Shown piece by piece: positions 6,619 to 35,285 of a DNA stretch of 64,000 nucleotides. Positions within the stretch are counted from its first letter, which is position 1. Every line of letters starts with the position of its first letter. Made by a program: the position numbers and the translations under genes. This stretch comes from Naegleria gruberi (Eukaryota), in NCBI GenBank assembly GCA_000004985.1, contig GG738915.1, one strand, 5' to 3'. Below the pieces are notes generated by a model, which did no database searches, had not been told where the DNA came from, and was given only the letters and a program-made list of their open reading frames with translations.

Positions 6619-8418
6619 TTGAAACGTATTGCTCTATGTGGAAATCCACTGGGAGATCAAGGAGCCAATTACCTGTCCAAATTCCTAATGAGACATGAAA
6701 ATGTTCCCCATCTACGTGAGTTGGATCTTTCTCGCTGTGGAATTAGACAAAATGGAGCTGAATGTATTGCTGAAGCTTTGCTAGTAAAGAGGGAAATTAC
6801 ATCCTTCAAATTTATTGGAAATCCATCAGAGCAAGGACTGTATACCATATTGAAACACTTGGGATACTCCTCATGTATTGCGGAGATTGATTTCAGTATG
6901 ACTAGTTCTATTGTAGCCAATGGTAATTCTGAAAGTATGGTCAAACTGTTGGATCTTTCCACAACTCTCAAGAAGATTAACTTGTGGAAAGCTAATGGAT
7001 TCCACATTCTCACCCAAGAAGTATTCAACAGAATTGGTAAATCAAAGAGTTTGAAAGATATTGATATGGCCGAAACAAAATTCAAAGATATTTCACTATT
7101 TGCTTTCGCTTTGAAAGATAACTACGTATTGGAAACTTTGAATCTATCAAATAATGATATCAAACTCTCTGAGGTGTATCAATTATATTGTAGATTACTT
7201 TTGTTACACTTTGAGAATGCTAACAAAACGAGAGAATTCTTGGATGGACCTAATGCTGCTGTCCCACCAAAGCTTGTCCATTTACAAAAGCTAACTCTAT
7301 CTAAGAATAATTTAACTAATCTATTACAGTCAAATATCAAAGAGGCAATTAGTATTGGTCAAATAATGAAAATGTGTACAAATTTGAATTATTTGGATTT
7401 ATCGGGATGTAAAATTGACAAAACTCATATGGAAGGAATTGCAGCAGCTTTGGATCCTAAATTCAACCTTCCTCTCAAAACTCTCAAATTGAATAATAAT
7501 GAGATTGGCAAAACAGGTTTGAGACCACTTGCCTCTATAATGAAACTCAATACTACCATTGAAGATTTGGACCTCTCTGGTAATGATTTGGGAGTTACAG
7601 GAAGTGTTTCATTAGCTGAAATCATTACAAATAACTCTTCCATCAAGAAATTGAACATATTCTCATGTTTTGTTCAAATTGAAGGAATTGACATTATTTC
7701 CAAAGCATTACAACAAAACACATCAATCACAGATTTGGATATTGGTTTGAATTCAGCCAAAGAAAGAGGAGCTCTTTCAATTATTGAAATGCTCAAACAA
7801 AATACCACTCTTAAGAGGCTTGGACTCAAATTGAATCATTTAAGTGACAAGACATGTACACAAATTGCCAATATCATTGCTATTGAAAATCCTAAATCCG
7901 CAATTCAATATTTAGCTCTTTCTGGTAATTCTCTTTCAATTTCAACAAGTTCCAATATTTCCATAGTTCTAAACTCTGTAAAGGATAGAGTAATTGAGTT
8001 TGATCTTACCAAATTGGTTGAAGTGAAAGATACAGAAAAACAAAATAGAACTATTTATCTTTCACCACTTCCAAACTCAATTACAATTCAAGATATCAAG
8101 AAATTCTTCTATCAACACAAATGTGGAGCTATATTGAATGTCTACATTCACAAACATAAGACTCCCAATAAGAAGACCAGACTCAACAAGTATGCCTTTG
8201 TAGAGTTTGCTCATCCAGACTCACTTCAATTGGCCATACGTTTGAGATATTCTAATAGACCAGAAAAGAAATCTCCAAATGTTGTAAAGCTTTTGAAGAG
8301 AATTCGTGGAAATGATGGTAAGAAAACTAAAGCAAAATGGTATGAATCCAAGCTCATCATCACCAAATCAGGCAATCAACTTCACAATGAAAGAGCCAAA
8401 AAGAAAATCAAACATTAA
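6619..8418 (+). CDS. RNI-type LRR protein with a C-terminal RRM, probably the 3' part of the same gene as 4481-6592
   Basis: Repeated LRR units of RNI/NLRC type, for example LDLSRCGIRQNGAECIAEAL and LDLSGNDLGVTGSVSLAEII. The C-terminal region, TIYLSPLPNSITIQDIKKFFYQHKCGAILNVYIH...KYAFVEFAHPDSLQLAI, contains an RNP-1-like KYAFVEF motif, so I call it an RRM. The ORF begins at TTG rather than ATG, and the same frame stays open back to 6586. Together these argue for continuity with the upstream ORF. Confidence 0.6.
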   Translation: MKRIALCGNPLGDQGANYLSKFLMRHENVPHLRELDLSRCGIRQNGAECIAEALLVKREITSFKFIGNPSEQGLYTILKHLGYSSCIAEIDFSMTSSIVANGNSESMVKLLDLSTTLKKINLWKANGFHILTQEVFNRIGKSKSLKDIDMAETKFKDISLFAFALKDNYVLETLNLSNNDIKLSEVYQLYCRLLLLHFENANKTREFLDGPNAAVPPKLVHLQKLTLSKNNLTNLLQSNIKEAISIGQIMKMCTNLNYLDLSGCKIDKTHMEGIAAALDPKFNLPLKTLKLNNNEIGKTGLRPLASIMKLNTTIEDLDLSGNDLGVTGSVSLAEIITNNSSIKKLNIFSCFVQIEGIDIISKALQQNTSITDLDIGLNSAKERGALSIIEMLKQNTTLKRLGLKLNHLSDKTCTQIANIIAIENPKSAIQYLALSGNSLSISTSSNISIVLNSVKDRVIEFDLTKLVEVKDTEKQNRTIYLSPLPNSITIQDIKKFFYQHKCGAILNVYIHKHKTPNKKTRLNKYAFVEFAHPDSLQLAIRLRYSNRPEKKSPNVVKLLKRIRGNDGKKTKAKWYESKLIITKSGNQLHNERAKKKIKH

Positions 8419-11400: not shown

Positions 11401-13173
11401 TTAGTTGTCGTCTACTGTACTCTCCTTTAACACAGCATCTTCAAAATTTTGGATTTGATGATCAATAAAGTGTTGAAAACGAGAACAGTCACTAACTTTC
11501 CATTCAATTTCATTCCATTTCGAAAGTAATTTAAACATCATGCTGGAGAAAGAGGATAGATCTTTAAGAATTTGAACTTTTTTCAATTTTGGTGGTTTAA
11601 ACTGTTGCAATAACTCAATATCTTTGTACGATGAAAATGTACATTCCAATGCAATTAAATTCTCATAGTTTTTACCCAATTCTTCAAAAAATTCTTTTGG
11701 AAATTCTCCAATTGTACAAATAATACTTAAATATTCCAAATTTCTCAGTACATCCAATTTAATAAAATCCATCAATTGCTCCTTTCCACTGATTACCACT
11801 GATAATCTCCTTAAATGTTTTAAATGTTCAATCTTTTCCAAATTTTGAGAGATATCTGAATTTGTAAACAGCGATTCCAAATTATTCAAACATTCATTAG
11901 AAAACATATTAAAATCTATATCTCCTAGGACTTTGATACGTAAATGCTTCAAATTTTTAACTAAGCTCAAATTACTCAAACTAAATGCCAAATCTTTGGT
12001 CGCATATAAATTAAATACTAATATTTCTAAATTTCTCAATGTATTATTACTGAAAAATTTTTCAGTGTCCTTAAATACTCTCGAAACTATTTTCAATATT
12101 TTCAGATTTGAAAAGTTATATTTCCATACATGATTAAGACAATAACTGGCTTGATCAGTGTCTTGTGAATAATCAATCCTTAAGTATTTTAAATTTAGAA
12201 TCATATCAGTGTCAACAACCTCATCATCTTGCTCACTTGCATCTATCATGTATGCTTTTAAAATTTCTAATGTTTTAATATTATTTAGAAGCATTATTAG
12301 TTGCTTTTCACCATCGAGCTGTATATCCAAAACTGAGAGGAGTTTCAAATTTAAAATCCGAGAAATATTACTAAATAGATCATCAATTCTCAATATTCTA
12401 AGACAGTCAGTATAATTATTGATAATTGGTGATAGTTTTTTCATAATATCATACTCCTCCATTGAAATATCTAAAAGTTTCAAATTATATAAATTTCTGT
12501 CTTTTAATTCTATTTTGTTATAACTAGTTTTAATTTTTATAAATTGTATGGTAGGTTTCTTGAAATGGAATGTGAAAGTTTTATCATTTTCCTCAAATAA
12601 CCTCTTAATGACAAGGTGTTTGATGTTTACACATTTGAGAATTAATTTTAATAGAGAATCGGGTTCATACTGAGAAAGTATTTCCAAATTTTCTATTTGA
12701 ATTAAATCACAGTTAGGTATTAGAGTAGATTTCCTTATCAATAAATTTTTAATAGTATTAATAACATTCCTAAATTGTTTTGAAACTGTCAAGTATTTAA
12801 AAATCTCAAAATCATAATTTAAATATGCAAATATGTTACATAATACATCATCACAAAATAATTCCGAACAGGTTTTGATTTGTTTGGTTTTCAACAGTTT
12901 ATCGTGATCCATATCTTGATCACTAATTTCCTCAAATTTGCGTTTGTTCTTATTTTCATCAGTGCTACTTCCATTTGATTTTAATTTACATAATTCAATT
13001 TCCAATTTTAATTCTTCCTGTCTTGCTTTTGCTTTGGCTTCTTCTTGAGTGAATTGTAATTTCAACTTCCACAATTCAAATATTTGCTCCGAAGAGAGTC
13101 CAAGCCTTTGACATTGTTCAATGAAACCATCAGAGTCCCCACCATCCTTTAACACAGCATTTTGTTGCGGCAT
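11401..13173 (-). CDS. F-box / leucine-rich-repeat protein with an N-terminal coiled coil
   Basis: F-box-like segment LFCDDVLCNIFAYLNYDFEIFKYLTVSKQFRNV. Many LRR-like units follow, such as NLKHLRIKVLGDI and LEYLSIICTIGEF. The ATG at 13171-13173 follows aaaaaATG in minus orientation. Confidence 0.7.
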   Translation of the reverse strand: MPQQNAVLKDGGDSDGFIEQCQRLGLSSEQIFELWKLKLQFTQEEAKAKARQEELKLEIELCKLKSNGSSTDENKNKRKFEEISDQDMDHDKLLKTKQIKTCSELFCDDVLCNIFAYLNYDFEIFKYLTVSKQFRNVINTIKNLLIRKSTLIPNCDLIQIENLEILSQYEPDSLLKLILKCVNIKHLVIKRLFEENDKTFTFHFKKPTIQFIKIKTSYNKIELKDRNLYNLKLLDISMEEYDIMKKLSPIINNYTDCLRILRIDDLFSNISRILNLKLLSVLDIQLDGEKQLIMLLNNIKTLEILKAYMIDASEQDDEVVDTDMILNLKYLRIDYSQDTDQASYCLNHVWKYNFSNLKILKIVSRVFKDTEKFFSNNTLRNLEILVFNLYATKDLAFSLSNLSLVKNLKHLRIKVLGDIDFNMFSNECLNNLESLFTNSDISQNLEKIEHLKHLRRLSVVISGKEQLMDFIKLDVLRNLEYLSIICTIGEFPKEFFEELGKNYENLIALECTFSSYKDIELLQQFKPPKLKKVQILKDLSSFSSMMFKLLSKWNEIEWKVSDCSRFQHFIDHQIQNFEDAVLKESTVDDN

Positions 13174-16997: not shown

Positions 16998-18202
16998 ATG
17001 GTGGGATTGAATGGAACGAATACAACTATTGTAGCCGAAACATCTAGGGAAGAGTTTGGACCATTTCAGTACATGATTTTCGGGGTCAATATTCCCTTTC
17101 TGATAATATATTCAATTCTATTTAGTGCTACCTTGATTAGTTTGATATTTAGTGTAAAGAAACAAGATAAGACGAAACGGAAAACCTTCTACATCCTTAT
17201 ACTTGTTCTGTCCTTGCTGTTTGCAGTCATTTTGAATTTACTTACAAGAATTGGTTCCGAACTTTGCTATTTCGAAACTGATCCGGATAGACTTGAACGA
17301 ATATATGGACTGGTAAAGGCTATTGACAGAACCATGATAGGATTTACAATGTCTATGGAACTTTTATTAATTGATTACATGTCTTTTCTATTGTAAGTAC
17401 TTAGAATACTTTCCATTTTATGATGATTAGTTTGGAAACAACTTGGAAAGTGAGCCATTTCATCTAAGCATTTCAAAATTGCTAAGTTTATAACTTTTGG
17501 ATTGGCTTTGGTTGTTTTGATTTGTTTAATGTTTCTTCTGAGTGGATTTTTAGTATTAGGAGGTTTCTTTTACGTTTATGGAAATCTTGGGATATTGAAT
17601 ACGATACTGACTTGTCTATTTACTGCCTCTGCTATATTGGTAGGGGTTGCTTCCAGTATGCTCCTGATAAACACTCATGTAGGTTTCTAATTATTTAAAA
17701 TTTGAACAAAATCAATTAGTATTGTGGGAAATTAATGCTGAAAACACTTGTTAATGGAAGAAAACAAGCCATGACACTTTCCTCATCTCCACCACAATTG
17801 AAAGAAAGTTATGATTTGAAAACAAGAGCCCTCAAGAAAGTGTGGAGTATCATTATTGTAGTTACACTAACTTCTGTTTTTCAGATTATTGGATTTATTT
17901 TCACTCCATTATCAATGGTGGATCATTTTATGATGAGTGGATTTCATATATGTTACAATATATCAATAATGGTCCTTGTAGTTCTGTATTTATATTTATA
18001 TGGACCTGTGAAGGAATTTCAACAATTATTCGAAAAGAGAGATTCAAAAGATTTGACAACCATTGTGACTGCATTCGATTCAACAGGATCTGAACGGATT
18101 CAGAAAGGATTAACCTTATCACATGTTTCGCCTGTGTCTCCTACCGATAGTGAAATAACCTCCAGGCAGGAATTGTTTCAGATAACAAATTCTAGGATAT
18201 AA
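16998..18202 (+). CDS. seven-transmembrane receptor-like (GPCR-like) protein, three exons
   Basis: Exon 1 is 16998-17392, with GTAAGT at 17393. Exon 2 is 17543-17678, with acceptor tttcttctgAG at 17541-42 and donor GTAGGT at 17679. Exon 3 is 17720-18202, with acceptor at 17718-19. Phases are consistent. The joined protein has seven hydrophobic helices, a charged third intracellular loop (KLMLKTLVNGRKQAMTLSSSPPQLKESYDLKTRALKK), and an S/T-rich C-terminal tail. Confidence 0.55.
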
Positions 18203-19004
18203 CAAAATACTTTATTAAGACATGCTGAATAACTTTAAATCTGAATTATTATTAATATTAATATTCAATTCATTATGTTGCATAACAGTACTTTGCAACA
18301 TTATGATGGAAACTTAAGTTGGAGCAGATTACAATAGTGGAATGATAAGACAAGATATCGTACTCAATACGTAAAGCTTCATAAATTAGAAAGGTGAAAA
18401 TAGACTTCAATTCTTCCACTATCCTTCTAATTATCCAATCACGACTTGAAAAAATCAAAAAAATGAAAACACTCATCAAGGTACGATTTTTTCTTTTTCA
18501 AAATGATGATTAAATATTATCTTTATGTCGGAATGGAAAATTCAAACTCTTATTTTCATAATTTTAATGTATTTAATATATTGATAGATTAAATATTTTC
18601 CTCCTGTCATTGTTGTCTTGACAGCAATTTCTCTCCTATTTTGTATAGTTTTGAGCTTGTTAACAGCACCAGATAGTGTTTCTAAACATTTGCCTGCCCT
18701 GAGTGAAACAGGAATATTTCCTCCGACAAAATATATTTTCACAGCATCCCTTGTGATACCATCCATATGTTTAATAGTTGGAGCAATTTTGCAATTTATT
18801 ACAACAAAGGAAAAATTAACCTCATTGGATCATCAACGACACACTTTAAATTATTGTAATGGATGTTTTAGAATGGGATGGTTGAGTATTGCATCCTGTA
18901 TTTTTGCTTTGATTTCAGGATTTTGTTTACTTGGACTTGGAATTGTGCCAATTATGGGAGGAGAAGTTATTGATGATAGTTTACTTTCGAATTCTACTAC
19001 CTCT
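17534..19004. repeat. segmental duplication, copy A (7TM gene exons 2-3, the intergenic spacer, and most of the DRAM-like gene)
   Basis: Near-identical to 33700-35285, which lies at an offset of 16166-16281 nt. There are a few SNPs, including one amino-acid change from K to Q at the start of exon 3. An indel of about 107 nt lies in the spacer between the genes, and an indel of about 12 nt lies in intron 1 of the DRAM-like gene. Confidence 0.85.
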
Positions 19005-19649
19005 ACTACTGTATCTTTTATAACTAGTTCTACTAGTCAACAGTCAGCAGAATCAATTGAAATTCTTCCATATACCATCATTCACTTGATATTTACATTC
19101 TTCTTCATGTCAACTGTGTTTATTCACATGGTACTCAATACCATTTTCAATGTAGTAAGTGCAATTATAGTAATTATTTATTAAGCGGAATGCATCACCA
19201 ATTCATTTAATATCCAGTTATATGATAAGAAAATTTCTCCAAAAAAGAAAATTCTCAATCCTTGGGTTATTGTAAAAATTGTCAGTTCATGCTCATTCTT
19301 GGTTGTGGGGCCAATCTTTAGTTTTATTATGGGAATTTTAGTTACAGTCACATGTTCTCAAACTGAGGTTATTAACAAGACTTGTCCACTCATGAATTTA
19401 TTCCAATTATTCCTTGGAGCTCTATCTCAATACAGTATTGTTGCCTCAATTTTAGTTTTCATGCTCACTTACATGTATGATTTCAAAGATGCATCCATCA
19501 GTATTAATGCTGAAGATCCAAGAAATGATATTCAAGAGAGGTTATCAGGACTTTCCTTAGAAAAGGATTTTGAATTGGAAGAGGACGATCTTGGAGCAGG
19601 AGACACCAACAGATTACACACTCTTGAGGATGAAGACGAATTTAATTAA
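18463..19649 (+). CDS. Frag1/DRAM/Sfk1-family-like six-TM membrane protein with an acidic C-terminal tail, three exons
   Basis: A tiny first exon, ATG AAA ACA CTC ATC AAG (18463-18480), is followed by GTACGA. Exon 2 is 18588-19154, with acceptor gatAG at 18586-87 and donor GTAAGT at 19155. Exon 3 is 19218-19649, with acceptor atccAG at 19216-17. The N-terminal motif HLPALSETGIFPPTKYIF resembles the DRAM/Frag1 signature (P.ISDTG..PP...IF). About six TM helices are predicted. The C-terminus is EEDDLGAGDTNRLHTLEDEDEFN. Confidence 0.5.
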
Positions 19650-24602: not shown

Positions 24603-25415
24603 TTATAATTTATTTCTCGAATTAATGAATTGTTTCTTTTTGAGTTCGTAACAATCCATCCAACTATTGAAGAAAATATTAATTTCGTCATCAGTGTAAT
24701 TTTCAGATGGATGGCACGAAGACAAAGGAGAGGAAGGAGAAGAAAGGGAATCGAATTGGGAGGTTATGGAGCAAGTTGTTGTGGAGGAGTATGGTGTAAT
24801 TGTCGAACTAGTTAATGGAATGACTGGTGTGGAAACTTCAGAAGAAGTTTGAACAATATTAGAATTAGAACGGTGTCTAGTGTTTTGAGTCGTACGGGAA
24901 TCAACAGTAGCAACAGATGACGGCTCTTCTGAATCGCTTTGAGAGAATTCATCACAACTAGCACTTATTTCAGAGGAACTCTTTGGAGTAATAGGCATAC
25001 CAGAGATTTCTGTGGTAATATCATTCAAATTGCTGGTGCATGGAGTAATGATGATTGGTGAGTAAATTGAATCTTGTGATTGAAGATTGAAAGAGGAGCA
25101 AACTGGAGTTAAAACAAGAGGAAAGTCTTCCAAGTGACGACGTTTGGATTTTTGAGTTTCCTCCAATCTGTTGGATGGTCGTTTTGTGGACTTGTTTTCC
25201 CTCTTCCTCATTGAATACTCCTTACCATTCTTACACACAGTTAGGATGAGAGAAGGTTTTGGACTCGAATTACTCTGCAGACAGGACTGCAGAGTTTTGG
25301 TAGTTGATGATTTTTCAGTTTCTTCACAACTGATGAGTGAAGAACATGAAACTTTACATTGTTGTTGAACATCAATAACATTCTGTTCAACTTGGCATAA
25401 TCTTGCATGAGCCAT
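24603..25415 (-). CDS. Ser/Thr-rich low-complexity hypothetical protein
   Basis: ORF with an ATG at 25413-25415 (minus) preceded by aaaaaaacaacaATG. The product is rich in S, T and P runs. The start is only 20 nt from an assembly gap, so the 5' end is uncertain. Confidence 0.45.
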   Translation of the reverse strand: MAHARLCQVEQNVIDVQQQCKVSCSSLISCEETEKSSTTKTLQSCLQSNSSPKPSLILTVCKNGKEYSMRKRENKSTKRPSNRLEETQKSKRRHLEDFPLVLTPVCSSFNLQSQDSIYSPIIITPCTSNLNDITTEISGMPITPKSSSEISASCDEFSQSDSEEPSSVATVDSRTTQNTRHRSNSNIVQTSSEVSTPVIPLTSSTITPYSSTTTCSITSQFDSLSSPSSPLSSCHPSENYTDDEINIFFNSWMDCYELKKKQFINSRNKL

Positions 25416-25434
25416 TGTTGTTTTTTTCAATGGG

Positions 25435-25588: not shown

Positions 25589-25936
25589 TAATGTATATGT
25601 TGACTTTGGATATTTCTTTTCATACTCAACAAGTACTTTATAGAGTAATGAAAAAGCAACTCTAGCTGGATAATCACTATCTGTAACAATAACAGCACTT
25701 AATTGACTATCCACTCTTGTTTGTACATAACAAGTGTATTCATCCTTGACAATTTGTTGTCTTGTTCCTGGAGGATTTTTATCCGATAATAATCTAGTAA
25801 TAAATACAACATATTCACGAACAGTACCACGTTGAAAGAATCCGAATGAAGATAATTCATCATAGCCGGCCAAAATAACTGATTTGCTATTTGCTGTTGT
25901 TGGCTTGTAGAGAACGTGAATGGCCAATAATTTCAT
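25589..25936 (-). CDS. YKT6: YKT6-type longin-domain SNARE (synaptobrevin homolog), 5' part only; the 3' end is lost in the N gap
   Basis: The N-terminal 116 aa, MKLLAIHVLYKPTTANSKSVILAGYDELSSFGFFQRGTVREYVVFITRLLSDKNPPGTRQQIVKDEYTCYVQTRVDSQLSAVIVTDSDYPARVAFSLLYKVLVEY, align by eye with the YKT6 longin domain (MKL..L.VLYK...L..A.D.SSF.FFQR..V.EF..F.......R......V....Y.CHV..R.D.L..VVI.D.EYP.RVAF.LL.KVL.E). The ATG at 25934-25936 (minus) follows an A-run. The expected C-terminal SNARE motif and CAAX box fall in the gap at 25435-25588. Confidence 0.8.
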
Positions 25937-26287
25937 TTTTTATTATTAGAGTTTTAAATTAATTGAATACCGACAGCATCATCATGCTACAACAATACAT
26001 ATTCTAAGTTTATGTTTGCCTCAAATGGAAAGAACATGTCTTTCCAATTAATATCTTTCTTCATCATCATCATGATTATCAATATGAATTAATCTCAAAT
26101 AATAATATATATTTCAATTTCACCCTTAACAAAGAATTCATACTCAAAGCTCCACATAATAATATTAATATTCTCAATACCTCACATTAATCTCTAATGT
26201 GAATGCAACTTTCATGTTTGCATCTCATCTCAATCCAAAAAAATCACTGACGATAAACTATTCAGGAATTTCTAAATCAAAAAAAAG

Positions 26288-26366
26288 GCCTCACTTCCCG
26301 TACGAGGCTTTATTAGCTGACTTGTTAAAGTACGAACCAAAGTAACCTCTCCACACTAACTTTATA
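26288..26366. repeat. left copy of an imperfect inverted repeat of about 75 bp (candidate terminal inverted repeat)
   Basis: Contains CCCGTACGAGGCTTT, TAAAGTACG, AAAGTAACCTC and CTAACTTTA. The reverse complement of the first, second and fourth blocks occurs in the same order at 31693-31760. The 11-nt core AAAGTAACCTC is in the same orientation in both copies. Confidence 0.5.
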
Positions 26367-26684
26367 GTTTAGTTGAACAAGTACGCTGTGATGATCATCT
26401 ATTTATGTATTGGCAATTTGAAAAACCATTCTTGTCAATCTCAATATGTATTATTCAATCAAAAATCCAAAAATGAGTATTGGCATTTGAATTTTACAAA
26501 TATGTGATTCCGTAAATTGATAAATACACTTTATTATACAAATAACAGTTTACAAAGAGAATATTCTTCAGTCGTGTGATTCACAACTTGAAAAAAATAT
26601 CGGCACACATCTTACCATCATCATTGTGTCTTGGTCGCGACCACACAGAACAAACAGAGGATTGTGATGATCACAATAATATAC

Positions 26685-26800
26685 AGTACTAATAATGATA
26701 ATAATAATAGTGATAAAATAGATAATAATAATATGCTGAATAATAGTGATAAAATAGATAATAATAATTAATAATAATAATAATAATAATATACAGTGAA
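26685..26800. repeat. AT-rich minisatellite: a unit of about 38 nt (AATAATAGTGATAAAATAGATAATAATAAT) repeated twice, flanked by (AAT)n
   Basis: Direct tandem duplication visible at about 26701-26732 and 26739-26770, followed by the run aataataataataataat. Confidence 0.6.
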
Positions 26801-26855
26801 TAATATATAGTAGTAGTCAGTTGGTAATTAATAATATCCAAGAACAGTGATCCTG

Positions 26856-28517
26856 TTATTTAAGCAGCGGAATGATATCAAATTCATCATCAGCAGTTCC
26901 AACTTGTTGAACATCTCTCTTTTGATTGTCTCTGAAATTTTCCCATTGATCATCTGTCTTGACAACTTTAAAACAGTAATGGTCGAGAATATGTTCAAAA
27001 TCTTCTTTCCACGCATTCTTAACTCTGGTTATGTTGAATTGTTTACAAATGAATCGTATTGCAACTCCAGGTTGCCTGGTTTTGGCTAGGAATCCCATTT
27101 GTTCGGAAGTGAAAAGAACTCTTCTTCCTGCCAATCTAATTTCAGCTGGTTGAGATATTATTTTGTACTCTTTCTTGACCTTATCTACATAATTTGTAAA
27201 AAGCTTGTAGAAAAGCTTGTGAATTTTCTTTTCAGCCTTCAATTCTACCTGTAATTGCTTAATTTCTGCATCCTTCTCTGCTAGTTGCTGCAAAAGATAA
27301 CTATTAACAAACATTGGTTGACTATTGAACATTGGTTGGTTAAATGATTGGCTAGTTTCAGGATTATTCATCAAGCCAAGGAAACTAACTTGATTTTCAT
27401 CAACAAATGAACTACCACTAATGTTATCACCGACAGTAATACTACTACTACTACTACTACTACTACTGCTACTGCCAGCACTACCAGCACTACCAGCACT
27501 ACCAGTACTGCCAACACTACCAGTAGAAAAAATTGGTTGCTCTCTATTATTGGTCTGTTGTGAAATCAAAGGTTGAGGACAAGTAACATCTTTTGGAGTT
27601 GTGGAATTATTCAACATTGATGGATTCACATTGGATGATGATGAACTTAAATGAGGAACTATGGAAGTGGTAACCTTATTTTCAAATATGACACTATTGT
27701 CAACTTCATCACTTTCATTTTGAAACTTGTTTTGGAATTGAGTAAAGGTCATTCTATTGGTGGCTGCCTCATAATTAACACTCATGCAGGACAGGTTCCA
27801 ATCTTCTATTTGATTGGGAAGCAATTCATCACTGTAGTACTTGTTACAATCTGGTACCAGTGATGTAATTACCACTCTAACTTTGCCAGATTCATCACAC
27901 CCAGTCATAGTGTAGCCATTAGCAATATGAACGAGTTGTTTATCCAATTCTATACCCAAACATACATTGGTACCAAAGGAAGGGGTTGAAGTGAGCTGAT
28001 TTCTTGTCATTAAGTTTGCTTTGACAAAGGAGTCCTTATCCAAAAAGCTTTTCAATTCATCCTTATGACTGAGGATTGTACTCTTGTGTTCTAGAATGGT
28101 GGTTAACAGAGCTGTCTTGTTGCCAGAGTATGACAAACTAGTAGAGCTGTATTTACTACATGATATGATGAAAGCCTTCAAAAAGTCACTTTTAAATTTC
28201 AATTCTTCCAACAATTTAACAGTACAATTAGTGTGCTCTAGATTTGCAATTAATTTGGTGAAGGATTGATTATCACTTGCTTTCAGACCATCTTTCCATG
28301 GTAATGGTTTAGCCTTTTTTAAAGGTTGTACAACTTGAATTTGTTGATCAACAGTGGATGATGATGTAATAGTTTGTGATGTTTGTGTAGGAGGATGGAA
28401 TTGAAATTGTTGAGATGATGATATTGTGGCAGGTGTAGGAAGGCTAGCCTTTCTCTTCTTACCTCTCTTTGTTTTAGTTTGGTTCGGATCGAACTGAACG
28501 AAATGCAGTGAAGACAT
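26856..28517 (-). CDS. hypothetical nuclear protein, 553 aa, S-rich, with a possible CENP-B/psq-type helix-turn-helix near the C-terminus
   Basis: ATG at 28515-28517 (minus) after aaaaaATG. N-terminal basic NLS-like KRGKKRK. Poly-S and GS repeat tract SAGSAGSAGSSSSSSSSSS. The C-terminal segment RRVLFTSEQMGFLAKTRQPGVAIRFICKQFNITRVKNAWKEDF resembles the psq/CENP-B N-terminal HTH (R..LT.E......G..I...FNI......KN). It is divergently arranged with the transposase-like gene. Confidence 0.5.
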   Translation of the reverse strand: MSSLHFVQFDPNQTKTKRGKKRKASLPTPATISSSQQFQFHPPTQTSQTITSSSTVDQQIQVVQPLKKAKPLPWKDGLKASDNQSFTKLIANLEHTNCTVKLLEELKFKSDFLKAFIISCSKYSSTSLSYSGNKTALLTTILEHKSTILSHKDELKSFLDKDSFVKANLMTRNQLTSTPSFGTNVCLGIELDKQLVHIANGYTMTGCDESGKVRVVITSLVPDCNKYYSDELLPNQIEDWNLSCMSVNYEAATNRMTFTQFQNKFQNESDEVDNSVIFENKVTTSIVPHLSSSSSNVNPSMLNNSTTPKDVTCPQPLISQQTNNREQPIFSTGSVGSTGSAGSAGSAGSSSSSSSSSSSITVGDNISGSSFVDENQVSFLGLMNNPETSQSFNQPMFNSQPMFVNSYLLQQLAEKDAEIKQLQVELKAEKKIHKLFYKLFTNYVDKVKKEYKIISQPAEIRLAGRRVLFTSEQMGFLAKTRQPGVAIRFICKQFNITRVKNAWKEDFEHILDHYCFKVVKTDDQWENFRDNQKRDVQQVGTADDEFDIIPLLK

Positions 28518-28564
28518 TTTTTAAAAAAAACACCAACTCCACAACAAGTGACACTTTCACCATA

Positions 28565-31037
28565 ATGAAAGAGAAGAGCAATCATTCTAAGGCTTGGTCT
28601 GAATCAACTTCATACAACGTTTACAAGAGGAGTAGTACGAATAAGCAACAACAGCCGAATCGTGATGGCCCCAACCATATGAATATTTCTTCTTTTAATA
28701 TCATCAATGGAGAGTGCAATGCTCAACCCTGCAGATTGTTTGATAGGCATCAAGAACAGATTACCAAAGACTATCTTCCAACTTTCATTAGGGATCTGAA
28801 TGCTTATATGCAAGCAAACTCTATCAATTACCAACTCAATTGTCCTCAACAACAACAACAACAGCCTCAACAGCCTCAACAACAACAACCATCATTACCT
28901 CAACAAATACCCATTCATCCAATAGATAATTCATCACTACCTGCTTCTCCATCATCATCACCAGCATCAACACCATCATCATCAATATCAAATGGAGAAT
29001 TAGGAGGACTGGACATTATGCATGACGATGAATTATTAGATAATCTTGATTTCATGGAAGTTTGGAGAGAGAATTCACTGAAAACACTAAGAAAGCAACT
29101 AACAAAGAAAAAGGATTGCTCTATTGGCAATAATAACCAGCTATCCGATCTATTGTTCGATTTATTATCATTCTATACCGATTCCAACATTTCAAAGGTT
29201 AACATGAGACGAATAGTTGATCTCTTTAACAAGTACTCGGCGATTGGAAAAAAGATTCCAACCCTAGATACTCTCATCAGTAGAATTCACAATGTCAACA
29301 ATGAGTATGAAAAGGTGTTTTATTGTTCAAAGCATTTGACAATTATTAAAGGTGAAACTCTGAAGGCTTGTTCCTGCGAGCAGTGTAGTGTTGAGGGTGT
29401 ATTGAACAAGGAGAATATTCAACACTTTTGGACTAAAAGTATTGCCTCGTGCATATCGAATATGGTTGATAGGGTAGGCTTGAGAAGATTCCAATCACAC
29501 CTATCTGCAGCTACTGATACGAACATTCCTACAGTGGGCCAGAAACATTTCATTAAGGACTGTGTTGATGGGGTCGAGTATAAGAGAATTACAGACAAGT
29601 GGGTCATTCGAGATGATCCCAACACTATTTGCCTCACCATTAGTGCTGGCACTGATGGTGGCTCTGTCAACAAGTCCAACTCTAAATCCATCAATCCTCT
29701 CTTCTTTTGGATAAATGAGATTGGATTGAAACACAGATTTTCCTATCCATTGACTTCATTGGCAGCATATGCAAACCACAAAATACCCTATCAAATACTC
29801 TTGTCCAAATTTATAGATGAACTCAATGAATTGGACAAGGGTTTGACTATTGTTACCAAGGGAGGATGTAAATTCTTTCTAAAAGTAAGTTGATTGTGTG
29901 ATTCATTGGACAACAAGCCAATTATTATTATTATATACATGTGAAACAAATAATTGGATTTGTTACTAGGTTCGCCTCTTTCAAATGATTGTCGATTTGG
30001 TTGCTGCAAAAGATCTCTTGCAAATCAATGGTCACTCGGGCCTGTGTGGTTGTAGATGGTGTCTACATACAGGAGAAAAGAAGGGAGAAAACACTGGTGT
30101 ATTGTATTGTGTAGGAAATTCGAGTTGTAATAGTGGAGTCAATAGAGTTTGGAATAACATGATGCCACAGTTTTGCAAGTTGCAAAAAAATGAGATTTCT
30201 TCCTTCGATGGTGTGATTGGCATTTCAATTCTCCTCAAGCTCAGCTATTTTAGATGGACTACTCAGGTAGCCTGTGATATTTTGCACAATCTTTTAGAGG
30301 GTCTTTGTAAAAAGATTTTGAAGAATATTTGTTCATTGTACAAGACTTTAATTCCCAGCATTGATGGTAAGTATTGTGGTGAAGGAAAAATATGAACTCA
30401 ACCCCTTGGTGTTTAACAATTGAAAGAACGCATCAAACTTATTGAAACTCCATCCATGTATCACAGAGAGATTCGTTCCTTGAATGAGGCTGCAAAGTTC
30501 AAAGCTATTGAATACTACATGTTGTTTGCCTATTGTAAGGATGTTTTCAAGAATATTATTTCTGAAAACCACTTTAACATTTTAAAAAGTGTCGAAACTT
30601 TTATAGGACTCATCATGAATCCTAGTGAGAAGAGTGAGCAAGCCAAGGCAAGTCTATTGCAAATGGCATTCAACTTGCTGCGAAGTGTGGAAATTGAATT
30701 TGGTGAGGAGGATATTACAATGGCCTCTCATACTGTTCTTCACTTTCCATTGTAAGTACTCTACTAGTTATTCAGAATGCAACAATTTCATATAATATTG
30801 ATTGTTTTAAAACAAGATCGATATGGAATTTGGGCCCTCTCTATACCAAACTCTACGTTCATGTTGGAGGATTTGATGGGCTCTCTTACTTCCTCCATCT
30901 ATGGAGGAAAGGCCAACATGGATCATAAGGCTTTGGAGAATTGGTCCATTCATCAAATGACCAGTTTGAAAAGGGTGAGACAATTCACACTTCCAATACG
31001 AACATGGTTTGTATCTTTTTTTTTCAAAGGTTGCTGA
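28565..31037 (+). CDS. Tnp2-family (CACTA/En-Spm/KDZ-like) transposase-like protein, at least four exons
   Basis: Exon A is 28565-29884, with poly-Q and S-rich N-terminal tracts, then ...ICLTISAGTDGGSVNKS..PLFFWINEIGLKHRFSYPLTSLAAYANHKIPYQ. GTAAGT lies at 29885. Exon B is 29970-30366, with acceptor ttgttactAG: VRLFQMIVDLVAAKDLLQINGHSGLCGCRWCLHTGEK. The GHSG..GC..C motif is characteristic of the Tnp2 family. GTAAGT lies at 30367. Exon C is 30427-30751: ...ASHTVLHFPL. GTAAGT lies at 30752. Exon D is 30776-31037: DRYGIWALSIPNSTFMLEDLMGSL, which is DUF4218-like. Every ORF break coincides with a GTAAGT donor and an in-phase AG acceptor. The 3' end is uncertain. Confidence 0.55.
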
Positions 31038-31141
31038 CACTCATAATGTTTAGATATTGTTAAATTTTCCAAGGGTATTTTTCAAATTGTTAAACGGTAA
31101 GTAGTTTCATGTCATGATAATGATTAATGATTGTATCACTA

Positions 31142-31251
31142 TCACCACCACCACCACCACCACCACCACATGAATATATTATTATCAATAATTCGTCGTC
31201 TCATCATCAACATCATCATCTCATCATCATCTCATCAACATCATCATCATC
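31142..31251. repeat. compound microsatellite: (CCA)n of about 9 units followed by an imperfect (CAT)n
   Basis: The sequence tcaccaccaccaccaccaccaccaccacat ... catcatcaacatcatcatctcatcatcatctcatcaacatcatcatcatca is directly visible. Confidence 0.75.
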
Positions 31252-31419
31252 AAATAGACAAAAGGAAGGAGGATGGAAATTATTAAACTTGTTGGATAAT
31301 TCAATCATGATTCAGGATCATCTTTCCACTATTGATGCCATTCCTTGCTTTGCTGTTACTGGTGGTTCTTCTAGTGGTTCTCCTCAATACCTTCCTGTAC
31401 ACAGAAATGACATGTTTCT

Positions 31420-31523
31420 ATTGTAATGTGTTGAATAATAAATTTAATGAAATATTTATTGTAATATTATATTTAATTATTACATTGTAATGACAATTGA
31501 ATATTTATTGAAAACATTGTAAT
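31420..31523. repeat. cluster of four ATTGTAAT octamers, at 31420, 31458, 31484 and 31516, with a recurring TATTTATTG
   Basis: Read directly from the sequence. Spacings are 26-38 nt. The cluster lies about 170-340 nt inside the right inverted repeat. Confidence 0.4.
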
Positions 31524-31692
31524 AACATTCCAAGTTGAATCCACTTTAATCTTTACATTTTGGGTTTTATTCAAGTCCAAATTGGTCAATTGAAAAAGTA
31601 TAATAGGCAATGATTAATTGGGATTCAGAATCGATAGAGTGTACAATAAGCTTACTTTTCAAAGAACGCAAGCGACCTCTCTTCCTGTACTC

Positions 31693-31760
31693 GTTAAAGT
31701 TAGGGTGAAAGTAACCTCCCAACGTACTTTCAAAAAAGCCTCGTACGGGTTCCTTCACCA
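31693..31760. repeat. right copy of the imperfect inverted repeat of about 75 bp
   Basis: The blocks TAAAGTTAG, AAAGTAACCTC, CGTACTTT and AAAGCCTCGTACGGG equal the reverse complement of the left copy's arms, with the core re-inverted. Confidence 0.5.
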
Positions 31761-31956: not shown

Positions 31957-33649
31957 ATGAGGAATTTTCGACAATACAAATCATCGACTGTACAGGTATC
32001 TCCACGAAATGGTGGGTACGTTCATCATCCTCATCCTCCATCAACAGTGAAACATTCAGCTGCTGATGGAATGAATGCATCTCCCAACAAGGGAGAGAAA
32101 AAGACATTTTCTGAAACAATGAGTGACAACTCTTCACAGCCCAACACTAGTGCTGTTGAACCATTGTGGCTGTATGGATATGCATACTTTTCATTGGATA
32201 AAACTATATGGGGATTGTTATTGGATTTGGAGAAAAAGTTTGATGCTGGTCAAATTGACAAGATTCAATCACTTCCTTCACCTTCATCCTCTCTTAATAG
32301 TGGTACTTTCACTTTTCAACCTCCAAAACCAAGTGTGAGGATAAAACAATTGAAACCAACAAATATTGAGCTTCTGAATCAATCATTTATGGATTATTCT
32401 AATGCCAACTTTAAAGAGTGTTTGAAGAATATTCAAATTTTGATAGAACGAAAGATTTCCATGTTTACCGACACAACAGAGGACAGATATGAACTGAATT
32501 TATCTTTATCTCTATTTTCAATTATCATTCTGAATTATTCAACTGTTTTGTCAACTCAATACCAGAGCTTTCACAACAGCATGGAACTATTGAAAGTTGG
32601 AGAAATGATGCTGAAACACTTCAAGAGCGACCAATTGAAAGATTATTTCACATCTCTATTCAGCAGTGCCATGTGTAATTATTACAAAAAAAGAAAAAAA
32701 TATAACATGATGTACAAATATTCCAAACAAGCCTATGAAATGTACAGTCAAACAGGAACAAGCATTTATGCTCAATATATTTTGCAAACGTATGCCACTA
32801 GTTGTCTCTTTCGCAAGAAGTATGAGGAAGCAATTGAGTGCTTTGAAAATAACATTTTTTTGTACAAAAACCAAATTCCAAGCACTTCTGTACAAACAAG
32901 CTTGCTAGATTATTTCAATAGAATTTTGACATTCATTTGCGACAATGAGTATTTCATAATTATTAATAAGTGCTTTAATACCTTCAATTATGGTGTGGCA
33001 CTATTTGAGACGAAACAGATGGTTCCTAGTCGATACTACCTCTTTCAAGCTATTGATATAATGAATCACCACCTCAGTTCCCACCACGATATAATTATAG
33101 AGAAACGATGGCTCAAGTCCATGATTAAGGTGTATAGAATTGTGACCTCTATTTGTGAAAACCAACCATACAATGATTGCAACATTTCCATGCATGCAAT
33201 TTTTAATAAGGGAAAACCAATGGTGGATCCACTCGAGCCAGCATTTAAAAACGAAAGGTACTATATTACCACACTGAACAAGGCAATACACTATGTCATT
33301 CTAGAAAATGAAAGACAAGAAGTTATGGCAAGAGCAGAGATTGACGCCGAGGAATATAGGAGAGTGAAGAAACTGGTTAGCATACTCCCCCTTTTGAAAG
33401 TGGATCCATATTTTGGTAAAATTATGAGCATTGAAAAATCAGTTAAGGAGAAGAAACAAACCATTCCACAGGCCATGTCCTTTGCTAAGAAAGCACTCAA
33501 ATCTTCGAAAATATTTCTCACTCCTCTAAAAAGACCTGAAGAAACAACATTGGATGAAAGTAATAATATCCTCAATAATTCATTTCTACTCGATGATTAT
33601 GGATATATTTCAAAGACACCTTCAGAATCACCAAGATCTGCTATCATTA
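31957..33649 (+). CDS. hypothetical protein, possibly alpha-helical and TPR-like; 3' end lost in gap
   Basis: Long ORF starting at the ATG at 31957 and running into the N gap at 33650. The N-terminal region is low-complexity, and the remainder is helical with some repeat character. I recognise no firm domain. Confidence 0.5.
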
Positions 33650-33699
33650 NNNNNNNNNNNNNNNNNNNNNNNNNNNNNNNNNNNNNNNNNNNNNNNNNN
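33650..33699. other. assembly gap (50 N), adjacent to the segmental duplication boundary
   Basis: Run of N characters. Confidence 0.99.
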
Positions 33700-33708
33700 T
33701 CTTCTGAG

Positions 33709-34368
33709 TGGATTTTTAGTATTAGGAGGTTTCTTTTACGTTTATGGAAATCTTGGTATATTGAATACCATACTGACTTGTCTATTTACTGCCTCTGCTA
33801 TATTGGTAGGAGTTGCTTCCAGTATGCTCCTGATAAACACTCATGTAGGTTTCTAATTATTTAAAATTTGAACAAAATCAATTAGTATTGTGGGAAATTA
33901 ATGCTGCAAACACTTGTTAATGGAAGAAAACAAGCCATGACACTTTCCTCATCTCCACCACAATTGAAAGAAAGTTATGATTTGAAAACAAGAGCCCTCA
34001 AGAAAGTGTGGAGTATCATTATTGTAGTTACACTAACTTCTGTTTTTCAGATTATTGGATTTATTTTCACTCCATTATCAATGGTGGATCATTTTATGAT
34101 GAGTGGATTTCATATATGTTACAATATATCAATAATGGTCCTTGTAGTTCTGTATTTATATTTATATGGACCTGTGAAGGAATTTCAACAATTATTCGAA
34201 AAGAGAGATTCAAAAGATTTGACAACCATTGTGACTGCATTCGATTCAACAGGATCTGAACGGATTCAGAAAGGATTAACCTTATCACATGTTTCGCCTG
34301 TGTCTCCTACCGATAGTGAAATAACCTCCAGACAGGAATTGTTTCAGATAAAAAATTCTAGGATTTAA
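33709..34368 (+). CDS. second copy of the 7TM receptor-like gene, exons 2-3 only (33709-33844 and 33886-34368); exon 1 is absent or in the gap
   Basis: Reading frame and splice sites are conserved with copy A. ORF 33901-34368 differs from 17735-18202 by two substitutions. The 5' exon cannot be seen. Confidence 0.45.
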
Positions 34369-34735
34369 CAAAATACTTTATTAAGACATGTTGAATAACT
34401 TTAAATCTGAATTATTACTAATATTAATATTCAATTCATTATGTTGCATAACAGTACTTTGCAACATTATGATGGAAACTTAAGTTGGAGCAGATTACAA
34501 CAGTGGAATGATAAGACAAGATATCGTACTCAATTGATTTCTTACTAATTACACTAATTGGTAATTATGCTTGATTCCAGTTCTACAGTATTGTATGGAT
34601 TCAAAGATTGTAAAGTTTCATTTCTATTTACTAGTATCAAACAATTAGAAAGTTGAAAATAGACTTTCAATTCTTCCACTATCCTTCTAATTATCCTTTG
34701 AATCACGACTGAAAAAATCAAAAAAATGAAAACAC

Positions 34736-35285
34736 TCATCAAGGTACGATTTTTTCTTGTTCAAAATGATGATTAAATATTATCTTTGTGTCGGAATGGA
34801 AAATTCAACTCTTATTTTCATAATTTTAATGTATTATCATGTATTTAATATATTGATAGATTAAATATTTTCCTCCTGTCATTGTTGTCTTGACAGCAAT
34901 TTCTCTCCTATTTTGTATAGTTTTGAGCTTGTTAACAGCACCAGATAGTGTTTCTAAACATTTGCCTGCCCTGAGTGAAACAGGAATATTTCCTCCTACA
35001 AAATATATTTTCACAGCATCCCTTGTGATACCATCCATATGTTTAATAGTTGGAGCAATTTTGCAATTTATTACAACAAAGGAAAAATTAACCTCATTGG
35101 ATCATCAACGACACACTTTAAATTATTGTAATGGATGTTTTAGAATGGGATGGTTGAGTATTGCATCCTGTATTTTTGCTTTGATTTCAGGATTTTGTTT
35201 ACTTGGACTTGGAATTGTGCCAATTATGGGAGGAGAAGTTATTGATGATAGTTTACTTTCGAATTCTACTACCTCTACTACTGTA
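34736..35285 (+). CDS. second copy of the Frag1/DRAM-like gene, partial: exon 1 at 34736-34753 and exon 2 from 34869, running into the gap
   Basis: The same MKTLIK mini-exon, GTACGA donor and gatAG acceptor as copy A are present. The intron carries an insertion of about 12 nt, and the coding sequence is nearly identical. Confidence 0.4.

What the first reader, a model, noticed from the sequence alone, without database searches (positions are those of the whole stretch)
26288..26366. Inverted repeat pair whose 11-nt core is re-inverted between copies
The left copy reads CCCGTACGAGGCTTT...TAAAGTACG-AACC-AAAGTAACCTC-TCCACAC-TAACTTTA. The right copy, at 31693-31760, is its reverse complement block for block, with the 15-mer, 8-mer and 9-mer blocks exact. 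The exception is the core AAAGTAACCTC, which is in the same orientation in both copies. This means the core is flipped relative to its flanking arms. The arms TAAAGT...ACTTTA form a 6-bp stem around the core, so this looks like a hairpin whose loop orientation differs between the two ends. An arrangement this specific is unlikely to arise by chance in a 35-kb window.
Basis: seen in the sequence. Interest (0 to 1): 0.5.

Follow-up and report, generated by a model that had tools for sequence, protein, structure and literature searches.

The report
Ends of a Naegleria DNA transposon
The two inverted copies are the terminal inverted repeats and repeat-rich sub-ends of a 5.45-kb cut-and-paste DNA transposon in Naegleria gruberi that carries its own RAG1-like transposase; this is an ordinary kind of element, though the family appears undescribed in what I could search.

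Summary
CCCGTACGAGGCTTT occurs exactly twice in the 35,285 real bases, in inverted orientation (26297-26311 and 31735-31749). The 8-mer, the 9-mer and the same-orientation 11-mer are all present as described.

The pair marks the termini of a 5,453-bp element (26297-31749). It encloses two divergent genes: a 553-aa ORF and a multi-exon transposase of about 760 aa.

Four related elements have the same architecture and the same kind of terminus (four CCCGT..., one YCCGAG...). Three are metagenome contigs and one is from N. fowleri. Remote relatives of the transposase carry Pfam Transposase_21 (tnp2), and its predicted fold matches RAG1. It therefore belongs to the CACTA/Mirage/Chapaev(-Transib) clade.

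The hairpin reading fails: the ends fold no better than shuffled sequence. Only the outer 18 nt is a true inverted repeat. The next ~48 nt is a quasi-palindromic, GTAC-rich module that aligns better as a direct repeat (p~0.001) than as an inverted one (p~0.03). That is why the core looks "re-inverted".

The best reading is subterminal protein-binding motifs of mixed orientation, as in other elements of this clade. Target-site duplication is unresolved. Interest is low to moderate: a new member of a known kind.

The parts
26297..31749 (+). Whole element: a 5,453-bp autonomous DNA transposon. It is inserted between a divergently oriented longin-SNARE-like gene (start at 25936, - strand) and a TPR-like gene (start at 31957, + strand).
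   Evidence: It is bounded by the 18-nt inverted repeat. The same two-gene module is bounded by the same kind of terminus in L001, L040 and L041; L039 shows the left end only. The flanks outside the repeats are unrelated to each other.
26297..26314 (+). Left terminal inverted repeat, CCCGTACGAGGCTTTATT.
   Evidence: It is 17/18 complementary to 31732-31749 (I17), and the first 15 nt are exact. The first 10 nt, CCCGTACGAG, are identical in L001 (both ends) and L039.
31732..31749 (-). Right terminal inverted repeat; on the - strand it reads CCCGTACGAGGCTTTTTT.
26317..26363 (+). Left subterminal module, quasi-palindromic and GTAC/AAAGTA-rich. It contains TAAAGTACG, the core AAAGTAACCTC (26339-26349) and CTAACTTTA.
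   Evidence: The direct-orientation alignment to 31685-31730 scores 30, p~0.001. GTAC occurs 3 times in the first 100 nt of this end, against 2.4 per kb in the window.
31685..31730 (+). Right subterminal module, in the same absolute orientation as the left one. It contains TAAAGTTAG, the core AAAGTAACCTC (31708-31718) and CGTACTTTC.
   Evidence: GTAC occurs 4 times in the last 110 nt of the element.
26295..26296 (.). Flanking TT, a candidate 2-bp target-site duplication; its partner is at 31750-31751.
   Evidence: Read. The evidence is only suggestive. L040 has TA/TA, but L001 has AA/CA and L041 has TT/TA.
31750..31751 (.). Flanking TT, the partner of 26295-26296.
26856..28517 (-). Second element gene: a 553-aa protein of unknown function with no Pfam domain, identical to N. 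gruberi 'predicted protein' P0005.
   Evidence: The gene in the same position in L001 is homologous (E=1e-12), and so is the L002 fragment (E=6e-5). A gene in the same position and orientation is present in L039, L040, L041 and L042, but in L041 it shows no detectable similarity.
28565..31053 (+). Transposase gene, about 760 aa, with at least 4 introns. Exon 1 is 28565-29887. Intron 1 is 29888-29969 (GTAAGT...TAG). Further exons lie at about 29970-30365, about 30426-30752, about 30825-30990 and 30991-31050, with the stop codon at 31051-31053.
   Evidence: tblastn of the N. gruberi models P0001 and P0002 gives 100% identity in exons. The splice site is read and the stop. Conserved D...D...C-x2-C...H residues are.

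Best explanation
The two copies are the left and right ends of one autonomous cut-and-paste DNA transposon of Naegleria gruberi, spanning 26297-31749.

Shown:
- An 18-nt terminal inverted repeat beginning 5'-CCCGTACGAG bounds two divergent genes.
- One of these genes encodes a DDE-type transposase of the CACTA/EnSpm-Mirage-Chapaev(-Transib) clade with a RAG1-like predicted fold.
- The same gene pair, bounded by the same kind of terminus, recurs in independent elements from other Naegleria-like genomes.

Inferred:
- The transposase binds the CCCG... termini, pairs the two ends, excises the element and reinserts it.
- The ~50-100 nt inside each terminus carries several short motifs built around the palindromic tetramer GTAC (AAAGTACG, AAAGTAAC, GAGTAC, and CCCGTACG itself). 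These serve as subterminal binding sites for the transposase N-terminus and/or the second protein.
- Because these motifs are short, near-palindromic and usable in either orientation, the two ends are not mirror images. The 11-mer 'core' is one such site, and it (with its ~48-nt surrounding module) lies in the same absolute orientation at both ends.

The arrangement is therefore end asymmetry of a transposon, not a hairpin switch. Whether the module reached this orientation by a past small inversion of a quasi-palindromic segment cannot be decided from two ends.
For: - The 15-mer occurs twice, inverted, and nowhere else in the window.
- Inside the pair lie ORF 26856-28517 (-) and the transposase gene 28565-31053 (+).
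- L001, whose transposase is 54% identical, has a perfect 20-nt inverted repeat CCCGTACGAGAGTTTTTTTA at 867-886 and 5948-5967 around the same gene pair.
- L039 has the left end CCCGTACGAGC.
- The N. fowleri locus L040 has [T/C]CCGAGCACTCGAAATT at 8239-8255 and 13098-13114.
- The more distant L041 has CCCGTGCAAC[T/C]TGTTTTCA at 575 and 7963. In L041, 20 of 23 GTTTTCA heptamers lie in the two ends, in both orientations.
- The family profile finds 1473 relatives. Relatives at E of about 1e-16 to 1e-23 pass the Pfam Transposase_21 threshold, and some also pass DUF1258; DUF4218 appears only below threshold.
- D, D, C-x2-C and H are invariant across 18 sequences.
- The AlphaFold model (pLDDT 79, pTM 0.80) matches RAG1 core chains at E down to 3e-9 with probability 1.00, matches BbRAGL, and matches HzTransib weakly.
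- GTAC is enriched about 12- to 15-fold in both ends.
- Exons of a second N. gruberi model (P0002) are identical to the window where aligned, while one search reports 96% over the spliced regions. This may reflect a second copy.
Against: - Pfam does not hit the window's own transposase directly. Membership rests on a transitive profile search and on predicted structure.
- The termini are CCCG...CGGG, not the CAC...GTG typical of EnSpm.
- Target-site duplication is not established. Flanking dinucleotides match in 2 of 4 complete elements, and the flanks are AT-rich, so chance agreement is likely.
- No second copy of the DNA from the same genome could be retrieved. Mobility, the consensus ends and the binding role of the subterminal motifs are therefore all inferred.
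- The direct-orientation module is not seen in L001 or L040, so it is not a family-wide requirement.
Confidence: 0.88

Rival explanations
1. Hairpin or cruciform whose loop flips. In this view TAAAGT/ACTTTA forms a stem, and the 11-nt core is a loop that has been inverted between the two ends, either as a functional switch or by stem-mediated inversion.
For: The exact 11-mer is in the same orientation while the neighbouring 8-mer and 9-mer are inverted. At the left end a further short inverted repeat, ACTTGTT/AACAAGT, brackets the module (26320-26326 and 26376-26382). This could have mediated a past inversion of the whole module.
Against: The folds are no better than shuffles, and the proposed stem is not in the minimum-energy structures. 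The 4-7 nt on either side of the core inside the 'loop' are not reverse complements of each other. The same-orientation similarity extends outside the stem. There is no counterpart in L001 or L040. As a one-off historical inversion of the module this remains possible and is compatible with the main explanation. As a working hairpin switch it is unlikely.
Confidence: 0.07
2. The pair is not a mobile element. It would instead be a pair of shared regulatory or splice-related motifs (GTACG...CTAAC...AG resembles intron signals) belonging to the flanking or internal genes, or a local inverted duplication.
For: The strings GTACGA/GTACGT, CTAAC and TAG/CAG occur in intron-like order on the strand reading inward from each end. 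Both copies lie in intergenic DNA close to gene starts.
Against: The same terminus bounds the same gene pair in different genomic contexts in four other loci. The enclosed gene is a transposase by profile and by fold. No ORF continues across these putative introns. Real introns of the element gene use GTAAGT...TAG.
Confidence: 0.02
3. The two repeats belong to two different insertions, such as two solo ends or MITEs of the family, and only by accident flank the genes.
For: Only one copy of each end is seen in the window, and the target-site duplication is not decisive.
Against: The length and gene order match L001 (5.1 kb between its repeats) and L040 (4.9 kb). The 15 terminal nt are identical. 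No additional ends are found in the window; the only near match, at 24889, lies inside coding sequence.
Confidence: 0.03

Closest known systems
En/Spm (CACTA) transposons of plants, and the wider EnSpm/CMC superfamily into which Repbase merged Mirage and Chapaev (PMC4455052)
   Same: The transposase is homologous to the tnp2/Transposase_21 family through profile search. It has the C-x2-C motif after the second catalytic D (the motif is described for the clade in PMC12730594). The TIRs are short. The subterminal regions are filled with short motifs in both orientations (window; L041). A second element-encoded protein is present. From established knowledge, En/Spm TnpA binds 12-bp subterminal motifs that occur in direct and inverted orientation.
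   Different: The termini are CCCG...CGGG rather than CAC(TA)...GTG. The 3-bp TSD of EnSpm is not seen (PMC12730594 gives the CAC..GTG terminus and the 3-bp TSD). The second protein has no detectable similarity to anything outside this family. Pfam does not recognise the window protein directly.
Mirage-type elements; the C. elegans DUF1258 proteins are, from my memory, Mirage transposases
   Same: Remote relatives of the window transposase hit PF06869 DUF1258 together with Transposase_21. A 2-bp flanking repeat, as recalled for Mirage, would fit the window (TT/TT) and L040 (TA/TA).
   Different: The 2-bp TSD fails in L001 and L041. The link between DUF1258 and Mirage comes from memory and was not tested here.
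RAG1 / Transib / ProtoRAG (BbRAGL) recombinases
   Same: The predicted fold of the catalytic region matches 42 RAG1-type chains (E from 1e-5 down to 3e-9, TM about 0.45-0.55), BbRAGL among them, and matches HzTransib weakly. The two ends are unequal in the spacing between the terminal repeat and the next conserved block (15 nt against 4 nt). This superficially recalls 12/23 asymmetry.
   Different: There is no sequence-level hit to any PDB chain. The ends have no CACAGTG-like heptamer and no RAG2-like partner. The match to Transib itself is weak (E=6e-3). The resemblance is at clade level (CMCT, PMC12730594), not family membership.
Hairpin-associated small inversions, i.e. loop flip between short inverted repeats as described in plastid non-coding DNA (from established knowledge)
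   Same: A short segment lies in opposite relative orientation and is bracketed by short inverted repeats.
   Different: No stable hairpin is predicted. The bracketed segment is not a clean reverse complement. The context is a transposon end.

Membership tests
CMC / EnSpm superfamily (CACTA-Mirage-Chapaev), CMCT clade | Transposase recognised directly by Pfam Transposase_21 (PF02992). | tested here: not met
   No Pfam family matches the window exons, P0002 or P0003 at E<0.1.
CMC / EnSpm superfamily (CACTA-Mirage-Chapaev), CMCT clade | Transposase homologous to tnp2-type transposases when tested by profile (transitive homology). | tested here: met
   The profile of the family hits P0016, P0020, P0021 and P0036 at E from 1e-16 to 1e-22 over about 350 positions. 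These four pass the PF02992 gathering score in the same region. P0013, P0015 and P0023 give sub-threshold PF02992 hits.
CMC / EnSpm superfamily (CACTA-Mirage-Chapaev), CMCT clade | [quoted passage not shown] | tested here: inconclusive
   D65, D150, C169-x2-C172 and H247 (P0002 numbering) are invariant in 18 sequences. Only a single H (DILHNLLEG) is present, so H(3-4)H is not seen. The catalytic E is probably the one in the KAxE motif, but it is not pinned down.
CMC / EnSpm superfamily (CACTA-Mirage-Chapaev), CMCT clade | RAG1/Transib-like catalytic fold. | tested here: met
   The model has pLDDT 79.1 and pTM 0.80. Foldseek matches RAG1 at E=3e-9 with probability 1.00, BbRAGL at 2e-8 and HzTransib at 6e-3.
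CMC / EnSpm superfamily (CACTA-Mirage-Chapaev), CMCT clade | Termini 5'-CAC...GTG-3'. | tested here: not met
   The termini are CCCGTACGAG (window, L001, L039), CCCGTGCAAC (L041) and YCCGAGCACT (L040).
CMC / EnSpm superfamily (CACTA-Mirage-Chapaev), CMCT clade | Target-site duplication of 2-3 bp. | tested here: inconclusive
   The flanking dinucleotides are TT/TT in the window, TA/TA in L040, AA/CA in L001 and TT/TA in L041. No 3-bp match is seen in any. The flanks are AT-rich, so chance agreement is high.
CMC / EnSpm superfamily (CACTA-Mirage-Chapaev), CMCT clade | Subterminal short repeats in both orientations. | tested here: met
   In L041, 20 of 23 GTTTTCA heptamers lie in the ends, on both strands. 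The window shows GTAC/AAAGTA motifs enriched at both ends in mixed orientation.
MITE (miniature inverted-repeat element) | Short (under about 800 bp), non-coding, with TIRs close together. | tested here: not met
   The repeats are 5,417 nt apart and enclose two intact genes.
Hairpin or cruciform with an invertible loop | A stem that is thermodynamically favoured over shuffled sequence, and a loop that is an exact reverse complement between copies. | tested here: not met
   The z-scores are +0.55, -0.25, +1.03 and -0.89, and the proposed stem is absent from the minimum-energy structures. Only the 11-mer is flipped; its immediate flanks are not.
KDZ (Kyakuja-Dileera-Zisupton) transposons | Transposase homologous to KDZ-type Pfam families. 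| tested here: not met
   Among 18 family members and relatives scanned, the only transposon-associated Pfam hits were Transposase_21, DUF1258 and DUF4218.

The most novel reading that the evidence does not exclude
The unequal ends may be functional. The spacer from the TIR to the first subterminal block is 15 nt at the left end and 4 nt at the right, a difference of about one helical turn. The ~48-nt module also lies in the same absolute orientation at both ends. A RAG1-fold transposase in a deep-branching protist might require one end of each type for synapsis, which would be a 12/23-like pairing rule outside the Transib/RAG lineage.
Probability: 0.08. Interest if true: 0.6.

Novelty: new member of a known kind. 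Interest (0 to 1): 0.27.

Why it matters
It explains the odd repeat as the ends of a transposon. It corrects a public gene model: N. gruberi 'predicted protein' P0001 fuses transposase exon 1 to the unrelated downstream host gene, across the right terminal repeat. It also documents a Pfam-invisible branch of the CACTA/Mirage/Chapaev-Transib clade in Naegleria, including the pathogen N. fowleri, with unusual CCCG termini and a conserved second gene. The value lies mainly in genome annotation and in surveys of RAG1-like transposases. It does not change any general principle.

Tried and rejected
- Rfam (gathering thresholds) and ARAGORN on the whole window found nothing. I had first considered a snoRNA, a Pol III gene or a tRNA-like element because of a TGATGA box and a T-run.
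- I considered and rejected an intron reading (GTACG...CTAAC...AG). See the rival explanations.
- Pfam on all element ORFs found no transposase domain.
- A PDB sequence search with the family profile and with ORF-A gave only noise.
- The look-up of encoding contigs for the N. gruberi proteins P0001 and P0002 and for the window ORF-A found nothing on record. No second N. gruberi DNA copy was obtainable.
- The homologue search with ORF-A returned only itself.
- The third word-indexed protein search, using the alignment, was swamped by low-complexity words and returned only the query.
- The metagenome protein-pattern scan found no relative.
- The metagenome DNA scan with CCCGTACGAGRSTTTWTT gave 36 single hits. 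None had a partner repeat or a transposase, and many lay in moderate- to high-GC contigs. The best, L017, aligned only through AT-rich low complexity.
- The near match CCCGTACGAC at 24889-24898 lies inside a coding ORF and was dismissed as chance.
- A helical-phasing pattern in block offsets between the ends (11, 13 and 25 nt in the window) was not consistent enough to claim.

Full report
**Source and setting**

The window holds 35,285 real bases; the rest is N padding, and there are two internal gaps. GC content is about 33%. Proteins encoded here are identical to 'predicted proteins' of Naegleria gruberi, so this is eukaryotic DNA with introns. Rfam and tRNA scans of the window are empty.

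**Check of the observation**

- CCCGTACGAGGCTTT is at 26297-26311 (+) and 31735-31749 (-).
- AAAGTACG is at 26327-26334 (+) and 31723-31730 (-).
- CTAACTTTA is at 26356-26364 (+) and 31695-31703 (-).
- AAAGTAACCTC is at 26339-26349 and 31708-31718, both on the + strand.

The 15-mer has no third hit even with three mismatches allowed. Shuffles expect 0.11 hits. The repeat finder extends the pair to 18 nt at 17/18 complementarity (I17).

The outer repeat is therefore real and non-random.
- The inverted blocks need an 11-nt indel to line up.
- Once the 18-nt repeat is removed, the next 100 nt of the two ends align only weakly in the inverted sense (score 21; 52 of 2000 dinucleotide shuffles do as well).
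- They align clearly in the direct sense (48 columns, 26317-26363 against 31685-31730, score 30; 1 of 2000 shuffles).

The module is quasi-palindromic (TAAAGT...ACTTTA, GTAAC/GTTAC). This is why short blocks can be read in either sense.

**What the repeats enclose**

Between the repeats lie two divergent genes.
- The first is a 553-aa ORF on the - strand (26856-28517). It is identical to N. gruberi protein P0005.
- The second is a multi-exon gene on the + strand (28565-31053). Its exons match N. gruberi models P0001 and P0002 at 100%. Its first intron is a canonical GTAAGT...TAG and its stop follows ...ADTHNV.
- P0001 is a chimeric model. It joins exon 1 of this gene to the unrelated downstream gene at 31990-33630, skipping across the right repeat.

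**Related elements**

The protein family is small but recurs with the same architecture.

| Locus | Source | Terminus | Notes |
|---|---|---|---|
| L001 | ENA metagenome contig, 6.9 kb | Perfect 20-nt inverted repeat CCCGTACGAGAGTTTTTTTA at 867-886 and 5948-5967 | 548-aa gene on - strand and a 54%-identical transposase on + strand |
| L039 | ENA metagenome contig | Left end CCCGTACGAGC at position 88 | Contig stops before the right end |
| L040 | N. fowleri ATCC 30894 (GCA_008403515; identity from PMC8040595) | [T/C]CCGAGCACTCGAAATT at 8239-8255 and 13098-13114 | Repeats enclose 4.9 kb and the same gene pair |
| L041 | JGI metagenome contig, more distant member | CCCGTGCAAC[T/C]TGTTTTCA at 575 and 7963 | 20 of 23 GTTTTCA heptamers lie in the two ends, in both orientations |

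In every case the flanks outside CCCG are unrelated to each other, so the terminus lies at CCCG. The second gene is homologous between the window and L001 (E=1e-12) and between the window and L002 (E=6e-5). It is not detectably homologous in L041.

**Classification of the transposase**

- Pfam does not see the window protein, and no PDB sequence matches it.
- A profile of four family members, searched against 1.84 billion representatives, finds 1473 relatives at E<=1e-3 and 199 at E<=1e-10.
- Relatives at E of about 1e-16 to 1e-23 pass the Pfam threshold for Transposase_21 (tnp2). Some also pass DUF1258. Sub-threshold DUF4218 hits appear as well. No KDZ-type family appears.
- An 18-sequence alignment keeps two aspartates, C-x2-C and a histidine invariant. 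This fits the motif set described for the EnSpm/Mirage/Chapaev/Transib/RAG1 clade (PMC12730594), although H(3-4)H is not evident.
- An AlphaFold model of the catalytic region (pLDDT 79, pTM 0.80) matches RAG1 core chains (best E=3e-9, probability 1.00), amphioxus RAG-like protein, and Helicoverpa Transib more weakly.

The element therefore belongs to the CMC(T) clade by homology and by fold. It departs from canonical EnSpm in its termini: CCCG rather than CAC.

**Target-site duplication**

The dinucleotides flanking the ends are TT/TT in the window, TA/TA in L040, AA/CA in L001 and TT/TA in L041. No 3-bp agreement is seen anywhere. Because the flanks are AT-rich, two agreements out of four is not convincing. 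I leave the TSD open.

**The 're-inverted core'**

Folding either end as single-stranded DNA gives energies no better than shuffles (z = +0.55, -0.25, +1.03, -0.89). The proposed TAAAGT/ACTTTA stem is not used in those folds.

The bases flanking the core inside the supposed loop are not reverse complements of each other. The same-sense similarity runs beyond the supposed stem.

Both ends are rich in short motifs centred on GTAC:
- The left end has CCCGTACG, AAAGTACG and CAAGTACG.
- The right end has CCCGTACG, AAAGTACG, CGAGTACA and TTGTACAC.
- That is 3 in 100 nt and 4 in 110 nt, against 2.4 per kb in the window.
- AAAGTAAC and AAAGTTAG variants are also present.

Such arrays of short, orientation-free subterminal motifs are the norm in this clade, and L041 is a striking example from the same family. 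I read the core as one of these sites. I read the ~48-nt module as a subterminal block that sits in the same absolute orientation at both ends, which makes the ends unequal.

A past inversion of the module is possible and cannot be excluded. It could have occurred between the short inverted repeats ACTTGTT/AACAAGT at 26320-26326 and 26376-26382. L001 and L040 do not show a direct-sense module, so it is a feature of this element rather than of the family.

**Mechanism: shown and inferred**

Shown: the terminal inverted repeats, the enclosed transposase of the CMC(T) clade, the conserved architecture and terminus across genomes, and the motif enrichment at the ends.

Inferred: the transposase recognises the CCCG termini and excises and reinserts the element. 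The GTAC-type motifs are binding sites for the transposase and/or the second protein, by analogy with En/Spm TnpA (from established knowledge). The end asymmetry may matter for synapsis.

**Limits**

No second DNA copy from N. gruberi could be fetched. Both metagenome scans were unproductive. Copy number, consensus ends, empty sites and TSD therefore remain to be determined from the full genome. I could not query Repbase or Dfam. The full-text literature searches found no description of such a Naegleria family.

**Verdict**

The feature is the pair of ends of an autonomous DNA transposon. It is a new member of a known kind, with non-canonical termini and a RAG1-like transposase that current domain libraries miss.

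Noticed in passing
window 28565-29887 joined to 31990-33630: The public N. gruberi protein model P0001 (1030 aa) is chimeric. Its first 442 residues are transposase exon 1, and the rest is the unrelated downstream host gene. The model splices across the transposon's right end.
   Followed up: partly
window 17534-19013 and 33700-35285: A ~1.5-kb segment is duplicated in direct orientation at 97-99% identity. The second copy starts right after the N gap at 33650-33699 and runs to the end of the scaffold. It may be a segmental duplication or an assembly or haplotype artefact.
   Followed up: partly
window 24889-24898 (-): CCCGTACGAC is a one-mismatch match to the 10-nt terminus. It lies inside the coding ORF 24603-25430 (-) and has no partner, so it is probably chance.
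   Followed up: partly
window 26280-26311: The host flank GCCTC (26288-26292) is complementary to GAGGC (26304-26308) inside the left terminal repeat. The pair is preceded by a run of seven A and followed by TTT, giving a terminator-like hairpin that spans the insertion junction. Some bacterial metagenome hits to the TIR pattern had similar terminator-like contexts. This is probably coincidence.
   Followed up: no
window 31419-31524: There are four direct copies of (T)ATTGTAAT(A/G), spaced about 30-40 nt apart, lying 230-330 nt inside the right end. No equivalent array exists at the left end, which instead repeats TGTGATGATCA (26387 and 26663) and GTATTGGCA (26407 and 26477).
   Followed up: no
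L041 575-800 and 7749-7963: A distant family member from a very AT-rich metagenome contig has dense arrays of the heptamer GTTTTCA/TGAAAAC in both ends (20 of 23 copies in the locus). This is a clear case of subterminal repeats in the family.
   Followed up: partly
L040 8292-8310 and 12891-12909: The N. fowleri element has a second 19-nt inverted pair (TCGAATTCAGTCAGAAAAA, 95% complementary). It lies 55 nt from the left end but 207 nt from the right end, so this element also has strongly unequal ends.
   Followed up: no
window 31127-31160: A run of G/C encodes poly-Pro on one strand and poly-Gly on the other. It lies just downstream of the transposase stop, inside the element's right non-coding region.
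   Followed up: no
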